This document shows, piece by piece, positions 32,961-53,271 of a stretch of 64,000 nucleotides of DNA. Within the stretch, counting starts at the first letter, position 1. Each line of letters starts with the position of its first letter. The notes beneath the pieces were generated by a model. It had not been told where the DNA came from, did not search any database, and saw only the letters and a list, made by a program, of their open reading frames with translations. This DNA is from Parcubacteria group bacterium. GTDB taxonomy: Bacteria; Patescibacteriota; Minisyncoccia; Phycocordibacterales; UBA2100. The stretch lies in NCBI GenBank assembly GCA_943358385.1, contig CALRGX010000005.1:2886-66885 (forward strand), in the 5' to 3' direction. The translations under genes were made by a program, and so were the position numbers.

Positions 32961-33009
32961 GGTCGTGCCTACTATACCACTCTCCCTGGGTAGGTGTTTA
33001 CGCTGAATA

Positions 33010-33038
33010 TTGACGTGGAACGTACTTGAAAGTATAGT
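33010..33038 (+). promoter_or_regulatory. Strong sigma70-like promoter driving ssrA
   Basis: TTGACG (33010-15), a 17-bp spacer, then TATAGT (33033-38). Confidence 0.6.
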
Positions 33039-33044
33039 CCAAAA

Positions 33045-33107
33045 CGGTGTTAGGTGCGGTGTAACTAAGTGGATCGGACCCGGGGGCGGTACCCGGCGCC
33101 TCCACCA
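33045..33107 (+). ncRNA. ssrA: tmRNA acceptor (3') piece of a circularly permuted ssrA
   Basis: A T-arm-like hairpin CCGGG-ggcggta-CCCGG is followed by CGCCTCC-ACCA. This is the 3' acceptor strand, discriminator and CCA, and it lies upstream of the 5' GGGGGCG strand. Confidence 0.55.
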
Positions 33108-33149
33108 AAAACACATCGCTCTGTTCTTTACAGAAGGTGTGCTTTTGCT

Positions 33150-33340
33150 GGGGGCGAAATAGGATCGACGACCACCCAAAAGCTCCGCTGCTTCAACGCA
33201 AGCCGAAGCACCAACTCAAGTGCCAACCATCAGGACGGCGCTGTTCACGCCTAAGGGCTGAACGGGGTTCGGGGAGTACCTGGCAACAGAAACTCCCCAC
33301 TCATACCATGGGCCCGCTCAAAGAGAGCGGGCCCAACTCA
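33150..33340 (+). ncRNA. ssrA: tmRNA coding (5') piece of permuted ssrA
   Basis: It begins GGGGGCGAAATAGGATCGACG, which resembles the tmRNA 5' end GGGGcugauucuGGAUUCGACG. Its GGGGGCG is complementary to the upstream CGCCTCC. It contains a short reading frame ending TAA (a candidate tag ...ANHQDGAVHA) and a terminal hairpin GGGCCCGCTC-aaagag-AGCGGGCCC. Confidence 0.55.
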
Positions 33341-38381: not shown

Positions 38382-38801
38382 GTGCAGCAACTTGAAGTAA
38401 CGGATCGTTCCCCGGGCGCACAAATACAGGCGGTCCTCATCCAGGTGAGTGACCAGGTGGCGCACAGCAGTGCTATGCGCTGGCTTTGCCGTGTCGTGTC
38501 TCTCGTCCCCGGAGGAATACAAACCTTCAGTGTCGTCCTCATTATCATCGCTGGCCTCGTGCCAATGGTGCTGATGGGTGTTGCGGTAGCCGTGGCAGAA
38601 AAGCTCTGCGCGCGCCGCGTAGGGTTGCTGCCCGCGCAGTATATCGGGGCGACCTGCTATCTGCTCACCCTCTTAGGGGCTGCAGTGTTCAGCAACATAG
38701 CGCTCGTACTCTTTGCACTCACCACGCTCTTTTTGATAACGGGCTGGTTCATCAGTGCGGTACCTGCAGCATCAGTGAGTAAAAAGGAAACCGCGGAATA
38801 G
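38382..38801 (+). CDS. Small hypothetical membrane protein
   Basis: It has three hydrophobic helices and no recognisable domain. A terminator follows. Confidence 0.4.
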   Translation: MQQLEVTDRSPGAQIQAVLIQVSDQVAHSSAMRWLCRVVSLVPGGIQTFSVVLIIIAGLVPMVLMGVAVAVAEKLCARRVGLLPAQYIGATCYLLTLLGAAVFSNIALVLFALTTLFLITGWFISAVPAASVSKKETAE

Positions 38802-38816
38802 TCACCGCCGTATGGC

Positions 38817-38847
38817 GAAACCACTTCAGAGAAGTGGTTTCTTCTTT
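38817..38847 (+). terminator. Rho-independent terminator
   Basis: GAAACCACTTC-aga-GAAGTGGTTTC is followed by TTCTTT. Confidence 0.7.
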
Positions 38848-38885
38848 AATGGAAATATATCTGAAGTACGTGGTATCATAAAAAT

Positions 38886-44140: not shown

Positions 44141-44487
44141 GGGCTGCATCGGGTAGCTGCTATCAATGGCAACATCGATAGAGGAAAGTCCGGGCTCGGG
44201 CCGATAGAAATATCGCGCAGCAGGGTAATAGGTAACGCCTATCCATCGTAAGGTGAGAGGTGCGAGCAGAAACGCCCGCGGCGAAAGCCAGAGGCCCCGC
44301 AAGGGTGACGTCTGTGGAAACACAGATATGAAACGGCTAAATCCTTACCTCCGTGCAAGGTCGTGCCTGTCGCAAGACAGGAGTGCCGCTTGAGGGTGTT
44401 GGCGACAACACTCCCAGATGAATAGTTACACAGTCCTTCGCCTGAAAAGGCTCGGGATGGACAGAACCCGGCTTACAGGTGCAGCGC
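44141..44487 (+). ncRNA. rnpB: RNase P RNA, bacterial type A
   Basis: GGAAAGTCCGGGCTC is the P4 5' strand, GGTAACGCC is present, ACAGAACCCGGCTTA is the P4 3' strand, the P3 hairpin is TATCAATG-gcaa-CATCGATA, and P1 pairs GCTGCATC with GGTGCAGC. Confidence 0.85.
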
Positions 44488-44795
44488 AGTGAGTGAAAAG
44501 AGGCCCCGAATAGGGGTCTCTTTTCCGAATAAGCAATTCTGTATGCTCCGCATACAGATGCAGCGCAGCGAATAAAGAAGAGACCCGAACAGGGTCTTTT
44601 CTTTTGAGCAAGCAAAATCTGAAAGGTTTCCTTATAGGTGCAGCGAAATGAGCGAAGAAAAACCCCGAATAGGGGTTTTTCTTCCGAATGAGCAATCCTG
44701 TATGCTTTGCATATAGGTGCAGCGAACGAGTCAAAAGAGAACGCGAAAGCGTTCTCTTTTGCGAGAGAGCCAGAACTGTATCGACCCGTGCCCGC
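44477..44795 (+). repeat. Four tandem ~80-bp units, each = copy of rnpB P1-3' strand (GGTGCAGCG / GATGCAGCG) + hairpin with GAANA pentaloop + U-tract (+ second hairpin in units 1 and 3)
   Basis: Units start at 44477, 44556, 44636 and 44716. The stems are GGCCCC/GGGGTC, AGACCC/GGGTCT, AAACCCC/GGGGTTT and AGAACGC/GCGTTCT, so they covary. Units 1 and 3 also carry TGTATGC-nnn-GCATACA. Confidence 0.6.
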
Positions 44796-44876
44796 ATGCC
44801 CCTGTGTGTATACGATATGCATAGTTTTTCTTGTGCTAGAATTATTCCAATTATAGGAATCTTAAAAGCAGTTATC

Positions 44877-47237
44877 ATGTCCACATCAATGCAAGGTTTG
44901 TCAAAAGTGCTTCAAAGTGTTGCTCTCTGGAGCGCAACACTCACTGTGGCATTACTCCCCGTATTTTTCCTCCCTGTGCAATGGGCAACTATTGCGCATG
45001 CGAAATTCTTGTTGCTTGCATTGGGCGTGGGCATCGGCGTTGCGGCTGCAGCGATAGCGAGCTTGGTGCGTGGGGACATACGCATTCCAAAGAGCATTGC
45101 GCTTTTCACCGTCTTCTTGGTCCCCTTGGCCTATATGGCCTCAGGTTTGATGCGCGGTGATGCGCATAGTTTCTATGCAGTTGAGAGAGACACGGTCTTG
45201 GCGTCGCTCCTGTGGGCAGGCGCGCTGTGGCTTGCGGTCCTCGGTTTCCAAAGTCGCGTACGAGTACTGTGGGCATATCGTGCCTTTTTGATTCTGGCCA
45301 CACTCATCACACTCTTCCAGATCGCGCGGCTCCTCATTGGGCCTGATCTCTTTACCTTTGGCGGTGCGCTCATTGGTCCCTCTGCAAGCGTCGTTGGCTC
45401 GTGGCACGACCTGGCCATCTTCTTGGGCTTTACCTTCATCCTCGCTATCTCGTTTCTGGGGAGTACTCATGCGGAAGGCACCGATCGCATCATCAGCATA
45501 GCGACAGGTATCATTGCGTTTCTAGGTCTTGCACTCATCAATATGCTTGATGTGTGGGTAGTAATTTCACTCACGACGGGTGCAATTGGTGCGTACCATG
45601 TGTACCGCTTCTACGCGCAGGATAAAAAGTGGAGTGTTGATCTGTTGAAGCATACCAGCACCGCACTCTTCCTCGGTGCGGCACTCCTGGCAGGTCTCTT
45701 TGCGATTGCAGGCACCACACTACACACCGTATTACCAACGGCGCTGCAAGTTACTCAAGTGGAAGTGCGGCCTTCATGGCAAGGGACTTTTGATGTTGCC
45801 TCGGCCGTCTATCGATCTTCGGGCGCTCTTTTCGGCTCAGGACCAAACACCTTTGTACGCGAGTGGGGAATGTACAAGCCTGCTGGCGTAAACGAAACAG
45901 CGTTCTGGAACGCGGATTTTGCGCAAGGTGTTGGTTTTATTCCAACCTCGCTCATTACGCTAGGAATTTTCGGCGCGATCGCGTGGCTCTTGTTCCTTGG
46001 CAGTTTTGCGTTTGAAGGTGTGCGTACGCTCATGCGCTCGGCGTCTGACAACAGTGTTGAGCCAATCATTGCAGGCCTCTTTGGTGGAGCGCTCTATCTC
46101 TGGGCGCTGCATGTGACTTACCCACCAGGGCCAGCCATTATGGCGTTGGCATTTTTGGTGAGTGGCCTTGCAATTTCATGGGCTGCGCACTCAGGCACTA
46201 TTCCGCTGATTCATATCTCAACACTTGCTGGCAGCCCACGATGGAAAATATTCTCGGTCACCCTCGGTTTTATTGTGCTCGGTGCCGGTATGTTTGTTAC
46301 CTCGGGGCTGTTTGTGCGCGCACTTGCAGCCGACATGCTCGTCAACAAATCAGTCGCCTCATTTAATCGCACTGGCTCGCTCGAGCAATCAGATGCGCTA
46401 CTCAAGACATCACTCGCGCTCTATCCCGGATACGATCGTGCCCACCGTGCGAGCGTTGAGCTGGGGCTTCTGCAGCTCGCCACCTTGGCAAAGGATGCAA
46501 ACGCTGAAGATCAAGCACGAGTAAAGTTGCTCCAGGACACCGTTTCAAACGCTATTGCGCACGGCCTTGCTGCCGTTGAATCCAATGCAGACGATTATCA
46601 AAACTGGCTCACGCTCGCTCGCGCATACGAGCAACTGGCAGGTGCGCAGGTAGAAGGTGCCTATGAGCGCGCCATTGACGCATATCAGGGCGCCGTTGCA
46701 AAAAACCCTACCAATCCTGCGCCACACCTCCTCTTAGCGCGCCTTGCTCTTCTGAAAGAAGATGTGGAGGGTGCCAAGAGTCAGCTCGCGCTTGCCGTTC
46801 AAAAGAAACAGAACTTCGCCGAGGCATACTTCTTGCTCTCACAGATCGCATCCTCAGCAGGTGATGTCGAAGGTGCTATTGCTGCAGCAGAGCGAGCAGT
46901 GCTCTCTGCACCACAAGAACCGGTTGCATGGTTCCAGTTGGGTGCGCTTCAGTATGGTGCACAGACCTACGACAAGGCTGTTGCGGCACTTGAGCAAGCG
47001 GTACTCCTGAACACCAACTATGCAAACGCACTCTACGTTCTCTCGCTCTCATATGCCGCACAAGGCAGATTCGAAGAAGCTGCGCGCGCGATGGAGTTGG
47101 TTTCTGCACTCAACCCAGATAGTACGGACTTGAAAAGCCTGGTGCAACAGTTGCGCACACAGGCTACAGCTACGCCTGCACCAGCTGTTCAAGACGTTCC
47201 TGCAGTAGAAGCAACGGAGCCAGCAACTGCTGAATAA
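44877..47237 (+). CDS. O-antigen ligase (Wzy_C)-like polytopic membrane protein with C-terminal TPR repeats
   Basis: Ten or more TM helices are followed by a C-terminal ~300 aa of TPR-like repeats (AYERAIDAYQGAV..., AEAYFLLSQIAS..., ALYVLSLSYAAQGRFEEA). The start is trimmed to MSTSMQG to avoid the repeat array. Confidence 0.55.
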   Translation: MSTSMQGLSKVLQSVALWSATLTVALLPVFFLPVQWATIAHAKFLLLALGVGIGVAAAAIASLVRGDIRIPKSIALFTVFLVPLAYMASGLMRGDAHSFYAVERDTVLASLLWAGALWLAVLGFQSRVRVLWAYRAFLILATLITLFQIARLLIGPDLFTFGGALIGPSASVVGSWHDLAIFLGFTFILAISFLGSTHAEGTDRIISIATGIIAFLGLALINMLDVWVVISLTTGAIGAYHVYRFYAQDKKWSVDLLKHTSTALFLGAALLAGLFAIAGTTLHTVLPTALQVTQVEVRPSWQGTFDVASAVYRSSGALFGSGPNTFVREWGMYKPAGVNETAFWNADFAQGVGFIPTSLITLGIFGAIAWLLFLGSFAFEGVRTLMRSASDNSVEPIIAGLFGGALYLWALHVTYPPGPAIMALAFLVSGLAISWAAHSGTIPLIHISTLAGSPRWKIFSVTLGFIVLGAGMFVTSGLFVRALAADMLVNKSVASFNRTGSLEQSDALLKTSLALYPGYDRAHRASVELGLLQLATLAKDANAEDQARVKLLQDTVSNAIAHGLAAVESNADDYQNWLTLARAYEQLAGAQVEGAYERAIDAYQGAVAKNPTNPAPHLLLARLALLKEDVEGAKSQLALAVQKKQNFAEAYFLLSQIASSAGDVEGAIAAAERAVLSAPQEPVAWFQLGALQYGAQTYDKAVAALEQAVLLNTNYANALYVLSLSYAAQGRFEEAARAMELVSALNPDSTDLKSLVQQLRTQATATPAPAVQDVPAVEATEPATAE

Positions 47238-52707: not shown

Positions 52708-52778
52708 GCGGAATTAGTTCAGTGGTAGAACGAATGCTTCCCAAGCATTAGACGCGGGTTCGATTCCCGCATTCCGCA
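52708..52778 (+). tRNA. tRNA-Gly (anticodon CCC)
   Basis: The acceptor is GCGGAAT/ATTCCGC with discriminator A. The anticodon stem AATGC/GCATT carries the loop TTCCCAA. The T-arm is GCGGG-TTCGATT-CCCGC. Confidence 0.85.
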
Positions 52779-53204
52779 CAAAAAAGATGAGCTGGAAGCG
52801 TGAGCTTCCGGCGATTACTTTTTGTAGCGAAATGCGGGAATCGAAAGGCGGAGCCTGAATGAATGCCGAACTGAGTGAGGCAGAGAACAGGCGAGCCCGG
52901 GGAGGAAGCACTTAGATTTTTCTGCGTGAGCTAGAAAAAACTTAGTGACTTGACCCCGATTCCCGCATTCCGCACAAAACTCGCTGAGCGAGTGTGTGTG
53001 GAATGAGAAACATGCCTGCGCATGTTTCGTCGGGAATCGAAGCCCGGAGCGTTGTGTTTGTTTGTGTAGCAAGGCAAACACCCTGCCCGACCGGCAGGCG
53101 GGCGCGAGGGCCGGCTCGAAGAAAATTGCGTCAGCAATTTTACTGAGAGGATCCCGCATTCCGCGTTATCGTAAATATCCCTGATTGATTCCCGCATTCC
53201 GCAC
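52758..53204. repeat. Patchwork of direct and inverted copies of the tRNA-Gly 3' end
   Basis: Direct copies of GATTCCCGCATTCCGCAC(AAAA) lie at 52763-80 (in the tRNA), 52958-79 (22 bp), 53152-64 (13 bp) and 53187-204 (18 bp). Inverted partial copies ATGCGGGAATCGAA lie at 52832-45 and CGGGAATCGAA at 53031-41. The arrangement looks like two ~195-bp units, each a direct core, a hairpin and an inverted core. Confidence 0.6.
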
Positions 53205-53271
53205 TCCACTATCCACTTGCGTCCCTGTGGAGTGCCAATGCTATACTGACCCTCTAAAAGCTAGCGTGCAC

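What the first reader, a model, noticed from the sequence alone, without database searches (positions are those of the whole stretch)
44477..44795. Four 80-bp tandem copies of the rnpB 3' end with covarying terminator-like hairpins
Directly after the RNase P RNA, the P1 3' strand plus the downstream hairpin is repeated four times with an exact 79-80 bp period, starting at 44477, 44556, 44636 and 44716. Each unit begins with (A)G[G/A]TGCAGCG, which can pair with the rnpB 5' strand GCTGCATC. The unit 2 version pairs even better than unit 1. Each has a hairpin closed by a GAANA pentaloop and followed by a U-tract. The four stems have different sequences but keep their base-pairing through compensatory changes. 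That argues for selection on RNA structure rather than recent duplication. Units 1 and 3 add a second hairpin, TGTATGC-nnn-GCATACA. I do not know of a described feature like this. It could be alternative 3' ends or terminators, small RNAs derived from rnpB, or scars of repeated insertion events at rnpB.
Basis: seen in the sequence. Interest (0 to 1): 0.65.

Follow-up and report, generated by a model that had tools for sequence, protein, structure and literature searches.

The report
Repeated RNase P gene tail modules
The RNase P RNA gene of this uncultured Patescibacteria (Kaiserbacteria-like) genome is followed by four diverged copies of its own last ten bases plus a conserved hairpin, which resembles a 1983 observation in E. 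coli but is here conserved across a whole clade and varies in copy number within one natural population.

Summary
rnpB (44141-44491) is followed by four units of 79-80 nt starting at 44477, 44556, 44636 and 44715. Each carries the P1 3' strand, AG[G/A]TGCAGCG, and a 13-bp hairpin.

The array is not an artefact and not private to this lineage:
- The exact 4-unit allele occurs in five assemblies.
- A 1-unit allele (rnpB joined directly to unit 4, an exact 238-bp difference) occurs in six contigs. Both alleles occur within one MAG.
- Arrays of 2-4 units follow rnpB in at least 9-13 of 68 related genomes.

Across 38 distinct hairpins, pairing is kept by compensatory change: 98.7% of cells are paired, against 67% in shuffles. 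The stem continues below through a G-C pair, a tandem G.A and two covarying pairs. G.U wobbles place the structure on the rnpB strand.

Orthologous downstream units are 94-100% identical between species whose four-fold sites are saturated, so they are constrained.

A precedent exists. E. coli rnpB has 113-nt repeats of its 3' end plus terminator, and tyrT/tyrV has 178-nt repeats; both were re-verified here.

Best reading: these are tandem duplicates of the rnpB 3' trailer module. They act as serial terminator or 3'-end hairpins and are reshuffled by recombination at the P1 copies. The function is inferred, not shown.

The parts
44141..44491 (+). rnpB, bacterial class A RNase P RNA. The P1 5' strand is at about 44141-44151 (GGGCUGCAUCG).
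   Evidence: Rfam RF00010, 120.4 bits, E 2.7e-36, full-length model.
44477..44555 (+). Unit 1. It holds the functional P1 3' strand AGGTGCAGCGC (44477-44487) and an extended hairpin at 44489-44530 (13-bp stem 44495-44507 / 44513-44525, loop GAATA). A small hairpin lies at 44538-44558.
   Evidence: CM R1 hit of 81.1 bits.
44556..44635 (+). Unit 2. P1 copy AGATGCAGCG (44556-44565). Extended hairpin 44568-44609 (stem 44574-44586 / 44592-44604, loop GAACA). It is orthologous to the first unit of relative L005 (72/74 nt).
   Evidence: (71.1 bits).
44636..44714 (+). Unit 3. P1 copy AGGTGCAGCG (44636-44645). Extended hairpin 44648-44689 (stem 44654-44666 / 44672-44684, loop GAATA). Small hairpin 44698-44716. 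It is orthologous to unit 3 of L010 (74/79 nt).
   Evidence: (78.6 bits).
44715..44795 (+). Unit 4; its 3' limit is fuzzy. P1 copy AGGTGCAGCG (44715-44724). Extended hairpin 44726-44766 (stem 44732-44744 / 44749-44761, loop GAAA). It is the only unit kept in the 1-unit allele and is identical over 56 nt to unit 2 of L010.
   Evidence: (64.8 bits).
44477..44714 (+). The 238-bp segment (units 1-3) that is present in the 4-unit allele and absent in the 1-unit allele of near-identical strains. The junction lies inside the shared AGGTGCAGCG.
   Evidence: Alignment A2. Allele survey.
44834..44848 (+). Extended -10-like TGCTAGAAT (44834-44842) ahead of the downstream TPR-MurJ-LepA genes, and a C/G polymorphic site at 44848 used as a linked marker.
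   Evidence: The sequence was read directly; it resembles the TGnTATAAT-type boxes upstream of rnpB in relatives. Promoter function is inferred only.
44877..47237 (+). Downstream gene: a membrane protein with C-terminal TPR repeats. It was used as the synteny anchor and is not part of the element.
   Evidence: Pfam TPR families. Synteny RNR - small ORF - rnpB - TPR - MurJ - LepA in relatives.

Best explanation
The array is a set of tandem duplicates of the rnpB 3' trailer module.

Each module contains:
- the P1 3' strand;
- about 8 nt of linker;
- a hairpin on the rnpB strand, made of a 13-bp stem extended below by a G-C pair, a tandem G.A/A.G and two more pairs;
- a spacer of about 30 nt, which often holds a small second hairpin.

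Shown:
- New units arise by duplication bounded by the P1 copies, and units are lost by recombination between P1 copies.
- A loss joins the rnpB body to a downstream unit and still leaves a complete gene.
- Modules are reshuffled between related species.
- The hairpins and spacers of downstream units are under purifying selection.

Inferred:
- The first hairpin forms or stabilises the 3' end of the RNase P RNA precursor, as the terminator 36 nt after E. coli M1 RNA does.
- The later hairpins act on transcripts that read through. They would serve as back-up terminators, as blocks to 3' exonucleases, or as processing sites. This would insulate the co-oriented TPR-MurJ-LepA genes, which have their own promoter-like box.
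- The P1 copies persist because they are the recombination substrate and because every contraction must regenerate a working P1 helix.
For: - Units and rnpB.
- Hairpin covariation: 38 distinct hairpins and 12 pairs; 98.7% of cells paired against 66.9 +/- 1.5 in shuffles; 149 cells with changes on both sides against 41; 0 of 500 shuffles reach the observed value.
- Helix extension: 88.9% paired against 75.7%; 22 cells with changes on both sides against 9.5; 0 of 500 shuffles; slid controls give 2-64%.
- Strand: 24 G.U and 7 U.G cells would be A.C mismatches on the other strand.
- Birth of units: L193 units 1 and 2 are identical 80-nt duplicates.
- Death of units: the exact 238-bp P1-to-P1 deletion allele, and a partly deleted unit in L005.
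- Recurrence: 9 of 68 rnpB loci pass a strict test, with control replicates mostly 1-3 (range 0-4). Spacings cluster at 76-85 nt. About 13 loci pass relaxed criteria.
- Constraint: orthologous non-first units are 94-100% identical, while four-fold sites of the neighbouring gene are 37% identical and rnpB's own P3 and P18 helices have changed. Near-identical hairpins are shared by genomes with only 37-45% TPR protein identity.
- Specific to rnpB: full-length CM hits in 628 kb lie immediately 3' of rnpB, with one strong exception (L033).
- Precedent: E. coli rnpB 113-nt units, each with the P1 strand and a terminator, with copy number varying among 5,426 genomes.
Against: - The hairpins are not canonical intrinsic terminators. 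The U-rich run is interrupted by C and is paired, no free U-tract follows, and the scan did not call them on the + strand.
- Conserved, covarying pairing continues 5 nt past the U-rich arm. The selected RNA must therefore run beyond the expected termination point.
- Orthologous units, including unpaired spacers (25/25 nt between window unit 2 and L005 unit 1), are more conserved than generic termination would require.
- The 1-unit allele is common in nature, so extra units are dispensable, at least in the short term.
- No transcript data were available.
Confidence: 0.55

Rival explanations
1. The units are functional RNA modules in their own right. Read-through transcripts would be processed into small RNAs, each a single-stranded P1-strand copy followed by a stable hairpin. 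These would act on the RNase P RNA 5' strand or on other targets, much as the repeat after E. coli tyrV yields the stable RttR (rtT) RNA.
For: - Sequence-level conservation of paralogue-specific units at saturated neutral divergence, including the spacers.
- The helix extension with tandem G.A requires RNA beyond the U-rich arm.
- The P1 copy is the most conserved segment within arrays, and it follows the host's own P1 sequence across genera.
- A seed followed by a hairpin is the usual sRNA layout.
- E. coli annotates RttR on the first 178-nt repeat after tyrV (10.1101/2024.07.17.603846).
Against: - No promoter-like box within units (and reading of the spacers).
- No Rfam family matches.
- No expression data.
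- The 1-unit allele lacks units 1-3 and persists.
- Distal units decay in several genomes: L005, L011, L029, L035, L061.
Confidence: 0.2
2. The units are cassettes or scars left by site-specific recombination at the rnpB 3' end. The agent would be an integrative element whose attP carries the gene's 3' end, or an integron- or HUH-like enzyme that recognises a folded single-stranded hairpin.
For: - Presence/absence dimorphism with exact boundaries at a short shared core.
- Different unit order in close relatives: 1-2-3-4 in the window, A-4-3-B in L010.
- Near-identity of units across species.
- The same window has the tRNA-Gly 3' end repeated four times downstream, a pattern typical of att sites.
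- G.T-tolerant, strand-specific hairpins would also fit a single-stranded DNA substrate.
Against: - Units are homologous over their whole length and have a fixed period of about 80 nt.
- L193 carries a perfect in-place tandem duplicate.
- The P1 copy changes with the host's own P1 sequence in each genus.
- No recombinase lies in the conserved neighbourhood, and a motif scan of the window found none.
- No true hit in viral contigs, phage records or plasmid records.
Confidence: 0.1
3. Units 2-4 are neutral by-products of replication slippage. Stem complementarity is maintained by template-switch (quasi-palindrome) mutation rather than by selection.
For: - Copy number is unstable.
- A single unit suffices in most relatives: 54 of 68 loci have one unit.
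- Some distal units are degenerate.
Against: - Orthologous non-first units are 94-100% identical where four-fold sites are 37% identical and the intergenic DNA upstream of rnpB is 59% identical.
- Unpaired spacers are conserved too.
- Covariation extends to pairs separated by an internal loop.
Confidence: 0.08
4. The array is an assembly artefact, or it encodes small peptides.
For: - The genomes are metagenome assemblies.
- A 22-codon ORF runs through unit 3.
- Public gene calls place a 161-aa ORF across the array.
Against: - The exact 4-unit sequence is recovered in five assemblies made with different assemblers.
- Units are too diverged to be collapsed or expanded at k=141.
- The period is not a multiple of 3.
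- All 5 differences between window unit 3 and L010 unit 3 are non-synonymous in that ORF, and all fall in loops or unpaired positions.
- The 161-aa ORF has no Pfam family.
Confidence: 0.02

Closest known systems
E. coli rnpB 3'-flank 113-nt tandem repeats (Reed & Altman, PNAS 1983, cited from memory; the paper is not in the library)
   Same: - The repeats lie directly after rnpB, and the first repeat starts inside the gene.
- Each unit has a copy of the P1 3' strand (GGCTTATCGGTCAGTTTCACCT) followed by a terminator hairpin.
- K-12 has about four copies.
- Copy number varies between strains: the same flank-to-flank query spans 771, 658, 545-552, 373-385 or 260-268 nt.
   Different: - No sequence similarity; the unit is 113 nt against 80 nt.
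- The first three E. coli units are 88-97% identical (the fourth has diverged, 69%); the units here have 75% mean column identity, with compensatory stem changes.
- The E. coli hairpin is a canonical terminator (GC stem followed by UUUUU). The hairpins here have paired A/U-rich bases plus a tandem G.A extension.
- The arrays here recur across a deep clade with orthologous units.
E. coli tyrT-tyrV 178-nt repeats, including RttR (rtT RNA) and tpr
   Same: - Tandem repeats downstream of a stable RNA gene.
- Three copies of a 203-nt block, spaced 178 nt and 95% identical, overlap the last 19 nt of tyrV.
- The first repeat gives a stable processed RNA (10.1101/2024.07.17.603846).
- The same window also shows repeats of the tRNA-Gly 3' end.
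   Different: - It follows a tRNA gene, not rnpB.
- The units are longer and carry an annotated small protein gene.
- No evidence exists here for a processed RNA.
Tandem intrinsic (Rho-independent) terminators after highly expressed stable RNA operons, such as rrnB T1 T2 (general knowledge)
   Same: Several stable hairpins in series after a strongly transcribed non-coding gene, on the sense strand.
   Different: - Such terminators are not copies of the gene's own 3' end.
- The hairpins here lack a free U-tract, and their conserved pairing extends past the U-rich arm.
Dispersed palindromic repeat families (REP/BIME, pneumococcal BOX elements; general knowledge)
   Same: Modular, mosaic arrays of hairpin-forming units of about 35-80 nt, with a variable number of units.
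   Different: Those families are scattered over many intergenic sites. These units are found essentially only after rnpB: 628 kb were searched, and all full-length CM hits were immediately 3' of rnpB apart from one strong exception (L033) and a few marginal hits.

Membership tests
Tandem repeats of a stable-RNA gene's 3' end (E. coli rnpB / tyrT type) | Head-to-tail direct repeats begin inside the 3' end of the RNA gene. | tested here: met
   Unit 1 starts at 44477, inside rnpB (44141-44491). Periods are 79, 80 and 79 nt.
Tandem repeats of a stable-RNA gene's 3' end (E. coli rnpB / tyrT type) | Every repeat carries a copy of the mature RNA's 3'-terminal strand. | tested here: met
   AG[G/A]TGCAGCG is present in all four units and 9 of 10 of those columns are invariant. 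The same holds with the host's own P1 sequence in L008, L010, L005, L029, L031 and L193. The E. coli equivalent was verified.
Tandem repeats of a stable-RNA gene's 3' end (E. coli rnpB / tyrT type) | Every repeat carries a terminator-like hairpin. | tested here: met
   Each unit has a 13-bp stem.
Tandem repeats of a stable-RNA gene's 3' end (E. coli rnpB / tyrT type) | Copy number differs between strains. | tested here: met
   4-unit and 1-unit alleles occur in near-identical strains. E. coli shows discrete length classes.
Tandem repeats of a stable-RNA gene's 3' end (E. coli rnpB / tyrT type) | Common descent with the E. coli repeats (sequence homology of units). | tested here: not met
   Unit lengths and sequences are unrelated. 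The resemblance is in organisation and arose independently.
Intrinsic (Rho-independent) terminator | A GC-rich stem-loop immediately followed by a run of U. | tested here: inconclusive
   The stem apex is GC-rich and the 3' arm is U-rich. However, that arm is interrupted and paired, no free U run follows, and the scan gave no + strand call.
Intrinsic (Rho-independent) terminator | RNA 3' ends map to the U-tract. | not testable with these tools
   No transcript data. Conserved pairing 5 nt beyond the arm argues that at least some RNAs run further.
Dispersed palindromic repeats (REP/BIME/BOX/MITE) | Many copies scattered in unrelated intergenic regions. | tested here: not met
   The window holds no other convincing copy (the only CM hit elsewhere in it is marginal, 38762-38861, 16 bits, E 0.059). 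The CM search of 85 sources found one lone strong copy (L033 6576-6632) and a few marginal hits.
att-site duplication by an integrative element | Direct repeats flank a multi-kb element that encodes an integrase. | tested here: not met
   Repeats are 80 nt apart with nothing between them. Neighbouring genes are RNR, TPR, MurJ and LepA. No recombinase motif in the window. No true viral, phage or plasmid match.
Known RNA family (Rfam) | A match at or near a family's gathering score. | tested here: not met
   Only chance-level matches, with E from 0.43 to 0.76 and 17-21 bits.

The most novel reading that the evidence does not exclude
The repeats are not spare terminators. They are a conserved, rnpB-linked family of structured RNA modules, and the P1-strand copies make the RNase P RNA 3' end recombinationally switchable. 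A population would keep both long and short alleles. Changing the allele would change which trailer is attached to RNase P RNA, and how much transcript (or which unit-derived small RNAs able to pair with the RNase P RNA 5' strand) is made. This would be a contingency-type locus acting on an essential ribozyme, with E. coli rnpB and tyrT/RttR as independent cases of the same principle.
Probability: 0.15. Interest if true: 0.75.

Novelty: new variant of a known kind. Interest (0 to 1): 0.5.

Why it matters
Repeats of a stable RNA gene's own 3' end have been known in E. coli rnpB and tyrT for four decades, and as far as I know they have not been satisfactorily explained.

Finding the same organisation independently in Patescibacteria adds three things:
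- orthologous units that can be followed across species;
- strong covariation;
- a natural 4-unit / 1-unit dimorphism.

This turns an anecdote into a comparative system. It suggests that essential RNA genes whose ends must pair (P1, the acceptor stem) tend to accumulate, and then retain, copies of their 3' module.

It also gives concrete hairpins, alleles and samples in which termination, processing or small-RNA production can be tested.

Practically, it explains spurious ORF calls and contig breaks at rnpB in these MAGs.

Tried and rejected
- Tandem Repeats Finder found nothing in the array because the units are too diverged.
- The literature search did not retrieve the 1983 paper or any description in CPR bacteria. 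That precedent is therefore cited from memory, and the sequence facts were re-derived from K-12.
- The single metagenome scan, with a 19-nt rnpB/P1 pattern, was mostly wasted. About 90 of 106 hits are a chance match inside a coding gene of a gut bacterium. Only L177 and L193 were useful.
- The viral-contig scan gave one chance hit inside a coding region. Phage and plasmid BLAST gave nothing.
- Coding potential was rejected: the period is not a multiple of 3, and all substitutions between orthologous units are non-synonymous.
- Are the spacers degenerate copies of the rnpB P2/P18 region, as in E. coli? Only 1 of 21 comparisons reached p of about 0.01, so this is not established.
- Do the first 4 nt of each P1 copy pair with spacer positions 11-14? 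17 of 28 units against 10.5 in permutations, p of about 0.004. The register was chosen loosely and the units are related, so this is kept only as a lead.
- A motif scan for tyrosine recombinases in the window was negative, but it is crude.
- The upstream 151-aa protein has no family and looks secreted, so it is treated as unrelated.
- No convincing final terminator lies after unit 4 (z -0.16).

Full report
**1. Observation.**
- Rfam places a full-length bacterial class A RNase P RNA at 44141-44491 on the + strand (120.4 bits).
- The last bases of the gene, AGGTGCAGCG, recur at 44556 (as AGATGCAGCG), 44636 and 44715, so the periods are 79, 80 and 79 nt.
- The four units align at 75% mean column identity. 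The P1-strand copy is the best conserved part: 9 of 10 columns are invariant, against 28 of 70 elsewhere.
- Each unit contains a 13-bp stem and folds far better than shuffled sequence, with z from -3.4 to -4.9.
- Units 1 and 3 end in a second small hairpin.
- The simple terminator scan did not call the hairpins on the + strand, and TRF misses the array.

**2. Source and context.**
- Homologues of the downstream protein are named Kaiserbacteria, Parcubacteria or Patescibacteria. The window therefore comes from an uncultured CPR bacterium.
- The gene order is class II ribonucleotide reductase, a small secreted ORF, rnpB, a membrane/TPR protein, MurJ, LepA. This order is conserved in relatives.

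**3. Anatomy of a unit.**
- RNAalifold on 27 units from many genomes predicts the 13-bp stem plus an extension below it. The extension is a G-C pair, an invariant GA opposite GA (a tandem G.A/A.G), and two further pairs that covary: AU 11 / GC 9 / GU 4, and CG 12 / UA 10.
- Counting those three pairs alone gives 88.9% paired against 75.7 +/- 2.6 in shuffles. There are 22 cells with changes on both sides against 9.5, and 0 of 500 shuffles reach this; slid controls are far lower.
- This explains the conserved 'GAG' before and 'CGA' after every stem.
- For the main stem, 38 distinct hairpins anchored at the loop give 98.7% standard pairs against 66.9 +/- 1.5. There are 149 cells with changes on both sides against 41, and all 12 pairs change on both sides. 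One caveat: the hairpins were picked by best pairing and the sequences are related.
- 24 G.U and 7 U.G cells would be mismatches on the opposite strand. The structure is therefore selected on the rnpB sense strand.

**4. Relatives.**
- A scan of species-level genomes with the TPR protein returned 80 loci, and the P4 3' motif of rnpB was found in 62 of them.
- Arrays of P1 copy plus hairpin at a spacing of 76-85 nt follow rnpB in these loci: L010 (4 units), L005 (3), L008 (3), L029, L031, L037, L013, L011, L018, L035, L061, L014 and L193.
- A strict test finds 9 of 68 loci, with control replicates mostly 1-3 (range 0-4).
- In each genome the repeated strand matches that genome's own P1 helix. 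Examples are AGCGCAGACC three times in L008, whose 5' strand is GUCUGCGU, and GGCGCAG in L029.
- A covariance model of the unit, searched over 628 kb, hits at full length almost only directly after rnpB. One strong exception is a lone copy between MurJ and LepA in L033; a few marginal hits lie elsewhere.
- The element is therefore gene-specific, not a dispersed repeat.

**5. Turnover.**
- Birth: units 1 and 2 of L193 are identical 80-nt duplicates. The second unit of L011 is identical to the first for 38 nt.
- Death: L005 has lost the front half of a unit-4-type module, and several distal units are degenerate.
- Shuffling: window unit 4 equals L010 unit 2, window unit 3 equals L010 unit 3, and window unit 2 equals L005 unit 1. 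The hairpin of L010 unit 1 equals that of L005 unit 2 but carries a different tail. The unit order is 1-2-3-4 in the window and A-4-3-B in L010.
- In a deeper clade, four hairpin types recur in orders consistent with an old array that lost units from the gene-proximal side. This is an inference.

**6. Population dimorphism.**
- Exact-protein look-ups recovered the same species from many assemblies.
- The 4-unit allele is in ERZ27280328, ERZ27280287, ERZ4201065, ERZ27280294 and GCA_943354405.1 contig 29.
- A 1-unit allele is in ERR5863119, ERZ27280264, ERR3719152, ERZ27280257, GCA_943354945.1 and GCA_943354405.1 contig 6. In it, rnpB runs straight into unit 4, an exact 238-bp difference whose junction lies inside AGGTGCAGCG.
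- Both alleles occur with either state of a SNP at 44848, and both occur within one MAG. No 2- or 3-unit allele was seen among 16 contigs.
- Since relatives carry orthologous units, the short allele is the derived one. Whether it arose once and then recombined, or arose repeatedly, cannot be told.

**7. Constraint.**
- Between the window and L010, four-fold degenerate sites of the TPR gene are only 37% identical, which is saturated. The 100 nt upstream of rnpB are 59% identical.
- rnpB itself is 90.6% identical, with many compensatory changes in P3 and P18.
- Yet the orthologous downstream units are identical at 56/56, 74/79 and 72/74 nt. The few changes fall in loops, in unpaired positions or as wobble-compatible changes in stems.
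- Genomes whose TPR proteins are only 37-45% identical share near-identical hairpins, for example 29/29 nt between L031 unit 2 and L035 unit 1.
- Neutral duplication debris is thus excluded, unless there has been recent gene flow limited to the array.

**8. What it is not.**
- There is no Rfam family and no phage or plasmid similarity.
- The single viral-contig hit is a chance match in a coding region.
- No recombinase motif is present in the window.
- It is not coding: the period is not divisible by 3, and all changes are non-synonymous.
- It is not an assembly artefact.

**9. Precedent.**
- In E. coli K-12, rnpB is followed by a 113-nt period repeat. Each unit holds the P1 3' strand GGCTTATCGGTCAGTTTCACCT and a canonical terminator. 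Successive copies are 88%, 97% and 69% identical.
- The span between fixed flanks falls into classes of 771, 658, 545-552, 373-385 and 260-268 nt among 5,426 genomes, so copy number varies.
- This matches my recollection of Reed & Altman (PNAS 1983), which I could not retrieve.
- tyrT/tyrV has three copies of a 178-nt-spaced block reaching 19 nt into tyrV. The annotated small RNA RttR lies on the first repeat (10.1101/2024.07.17.603846).

**10. Mechanism.**
- Shown: the units are duplicates of the rnpB 3' module. They are gained and lost at the P1 copies, and they carry an RNA-strand hairpin under purifying selection.
- Inferred as most likely (0.55): the first hairpin ends or stabilises the RNase P RNA precursor. 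The later hairpins act on read-through as back-up terminators, exonuclease blocks or processing sites, shielding the downstream operon, which has its own TGCTAGAAT box.
- Points against a plain terminator: there is no free U-tract; conserved pairing runs past the U-rich arm; conservation is stronger than termination needs; and the 1-unit allele is viable.
- Rivals: processed small RNAs or cis partners of the P1 5' strand (0.2); recombinase cassettes or scars (0.1); neutral slippage (0.08); artefact or peptides (0.02).

**11. Verdict.**
- This is a real, well-supported feature, and a new variant of a known but poorly understood kind.
- It is moderately interesting because it recurs independently of E. 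coli, is conserved and structured, and is polymorphic in nature.
- Its function remains untested.

Noticed in passing
window 52708-53230: The 3' end of tRNA-Gly(CCC) (52708-52779), CGATTCCCGCATTCCGCA, recurs downstream at 52957 (23/23 nt), 53148 and 53186. Inverted copies lie at 52827-52845 and 53031-53044. The region folds with z = -11. The first trailer hairpin (52789-52814) has the same AUGAG-stem-CGA flanks as the rnpB units. A second stable-RNA gene in this window therefore shows 3'-end repeats.
   Followed up: partly
window 33006-33301: A two-piece (permuted) tmRNA: Rfam alpha_tmRNA at 122.9 bits and tmRNA_permuted at 91.9 bits, in a Patescibacteria genome.
   Followed up: no
window 44337-44822 (minus strand): Public gene calls place a 161-aa ORF with no Pfam family across the 3' half of rnpB and the whole array. 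It is spurious, but it served as an exact-match probe for the 4-unit allele (8 contigs).
   Followed up: yes
window 44848; loci L001-L004, L197-L211: A C/G polymorphism about 50 nt after the array occurs with both the 4-unit and the 1-unit allele, so all four combinations exist. MAG GCA_943354405.1 has one contig ending in rnpB plus unit 4 and another starting in rnpB followed by units 1-4. This indicates strain heterogeneity that breaks assemblies at this site.
   Followed up: partly
L011 about 2146-2420: The second rnpB unit is identical to the first for 38 nt. It is then interrupted in its loop by an element of about 190 nt with terminal inverted repeats of about 40 nt (MITE-like).
   Followed up: no
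L033 6576-6632 (minus strand): A lone unit-like module (31.7 bits with the unit model) lies between MurJ and LepA, flanked by CAGTTTACAG direct repeats. It is the only strong hit not adjacent to rnpB.
   Followed up: partly
L009 (E. coli K-12 NC_000913.3 3269000-3271200): The E. coli repeat copies keep AGATGAATGACTGTCCACGAC and the P1 3' strand. However, they replace the P4 3' strand AGAACCC with GCTATACCCAAAAGAAAGC. Copy number differs among E. coli genomes.
   Followed up: partly
L090-L195 (metagenome scan): The 19-nt pattern CCGGCTTAYAGRTGCAGCG occurs by chance inside a conserved protein-coding gene of a common human-gut bacterium (about 90 contigs). A different gut organism's rnpB with the same P1 strand has a single ordinary terminator and no repeats.
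   Followed up: no
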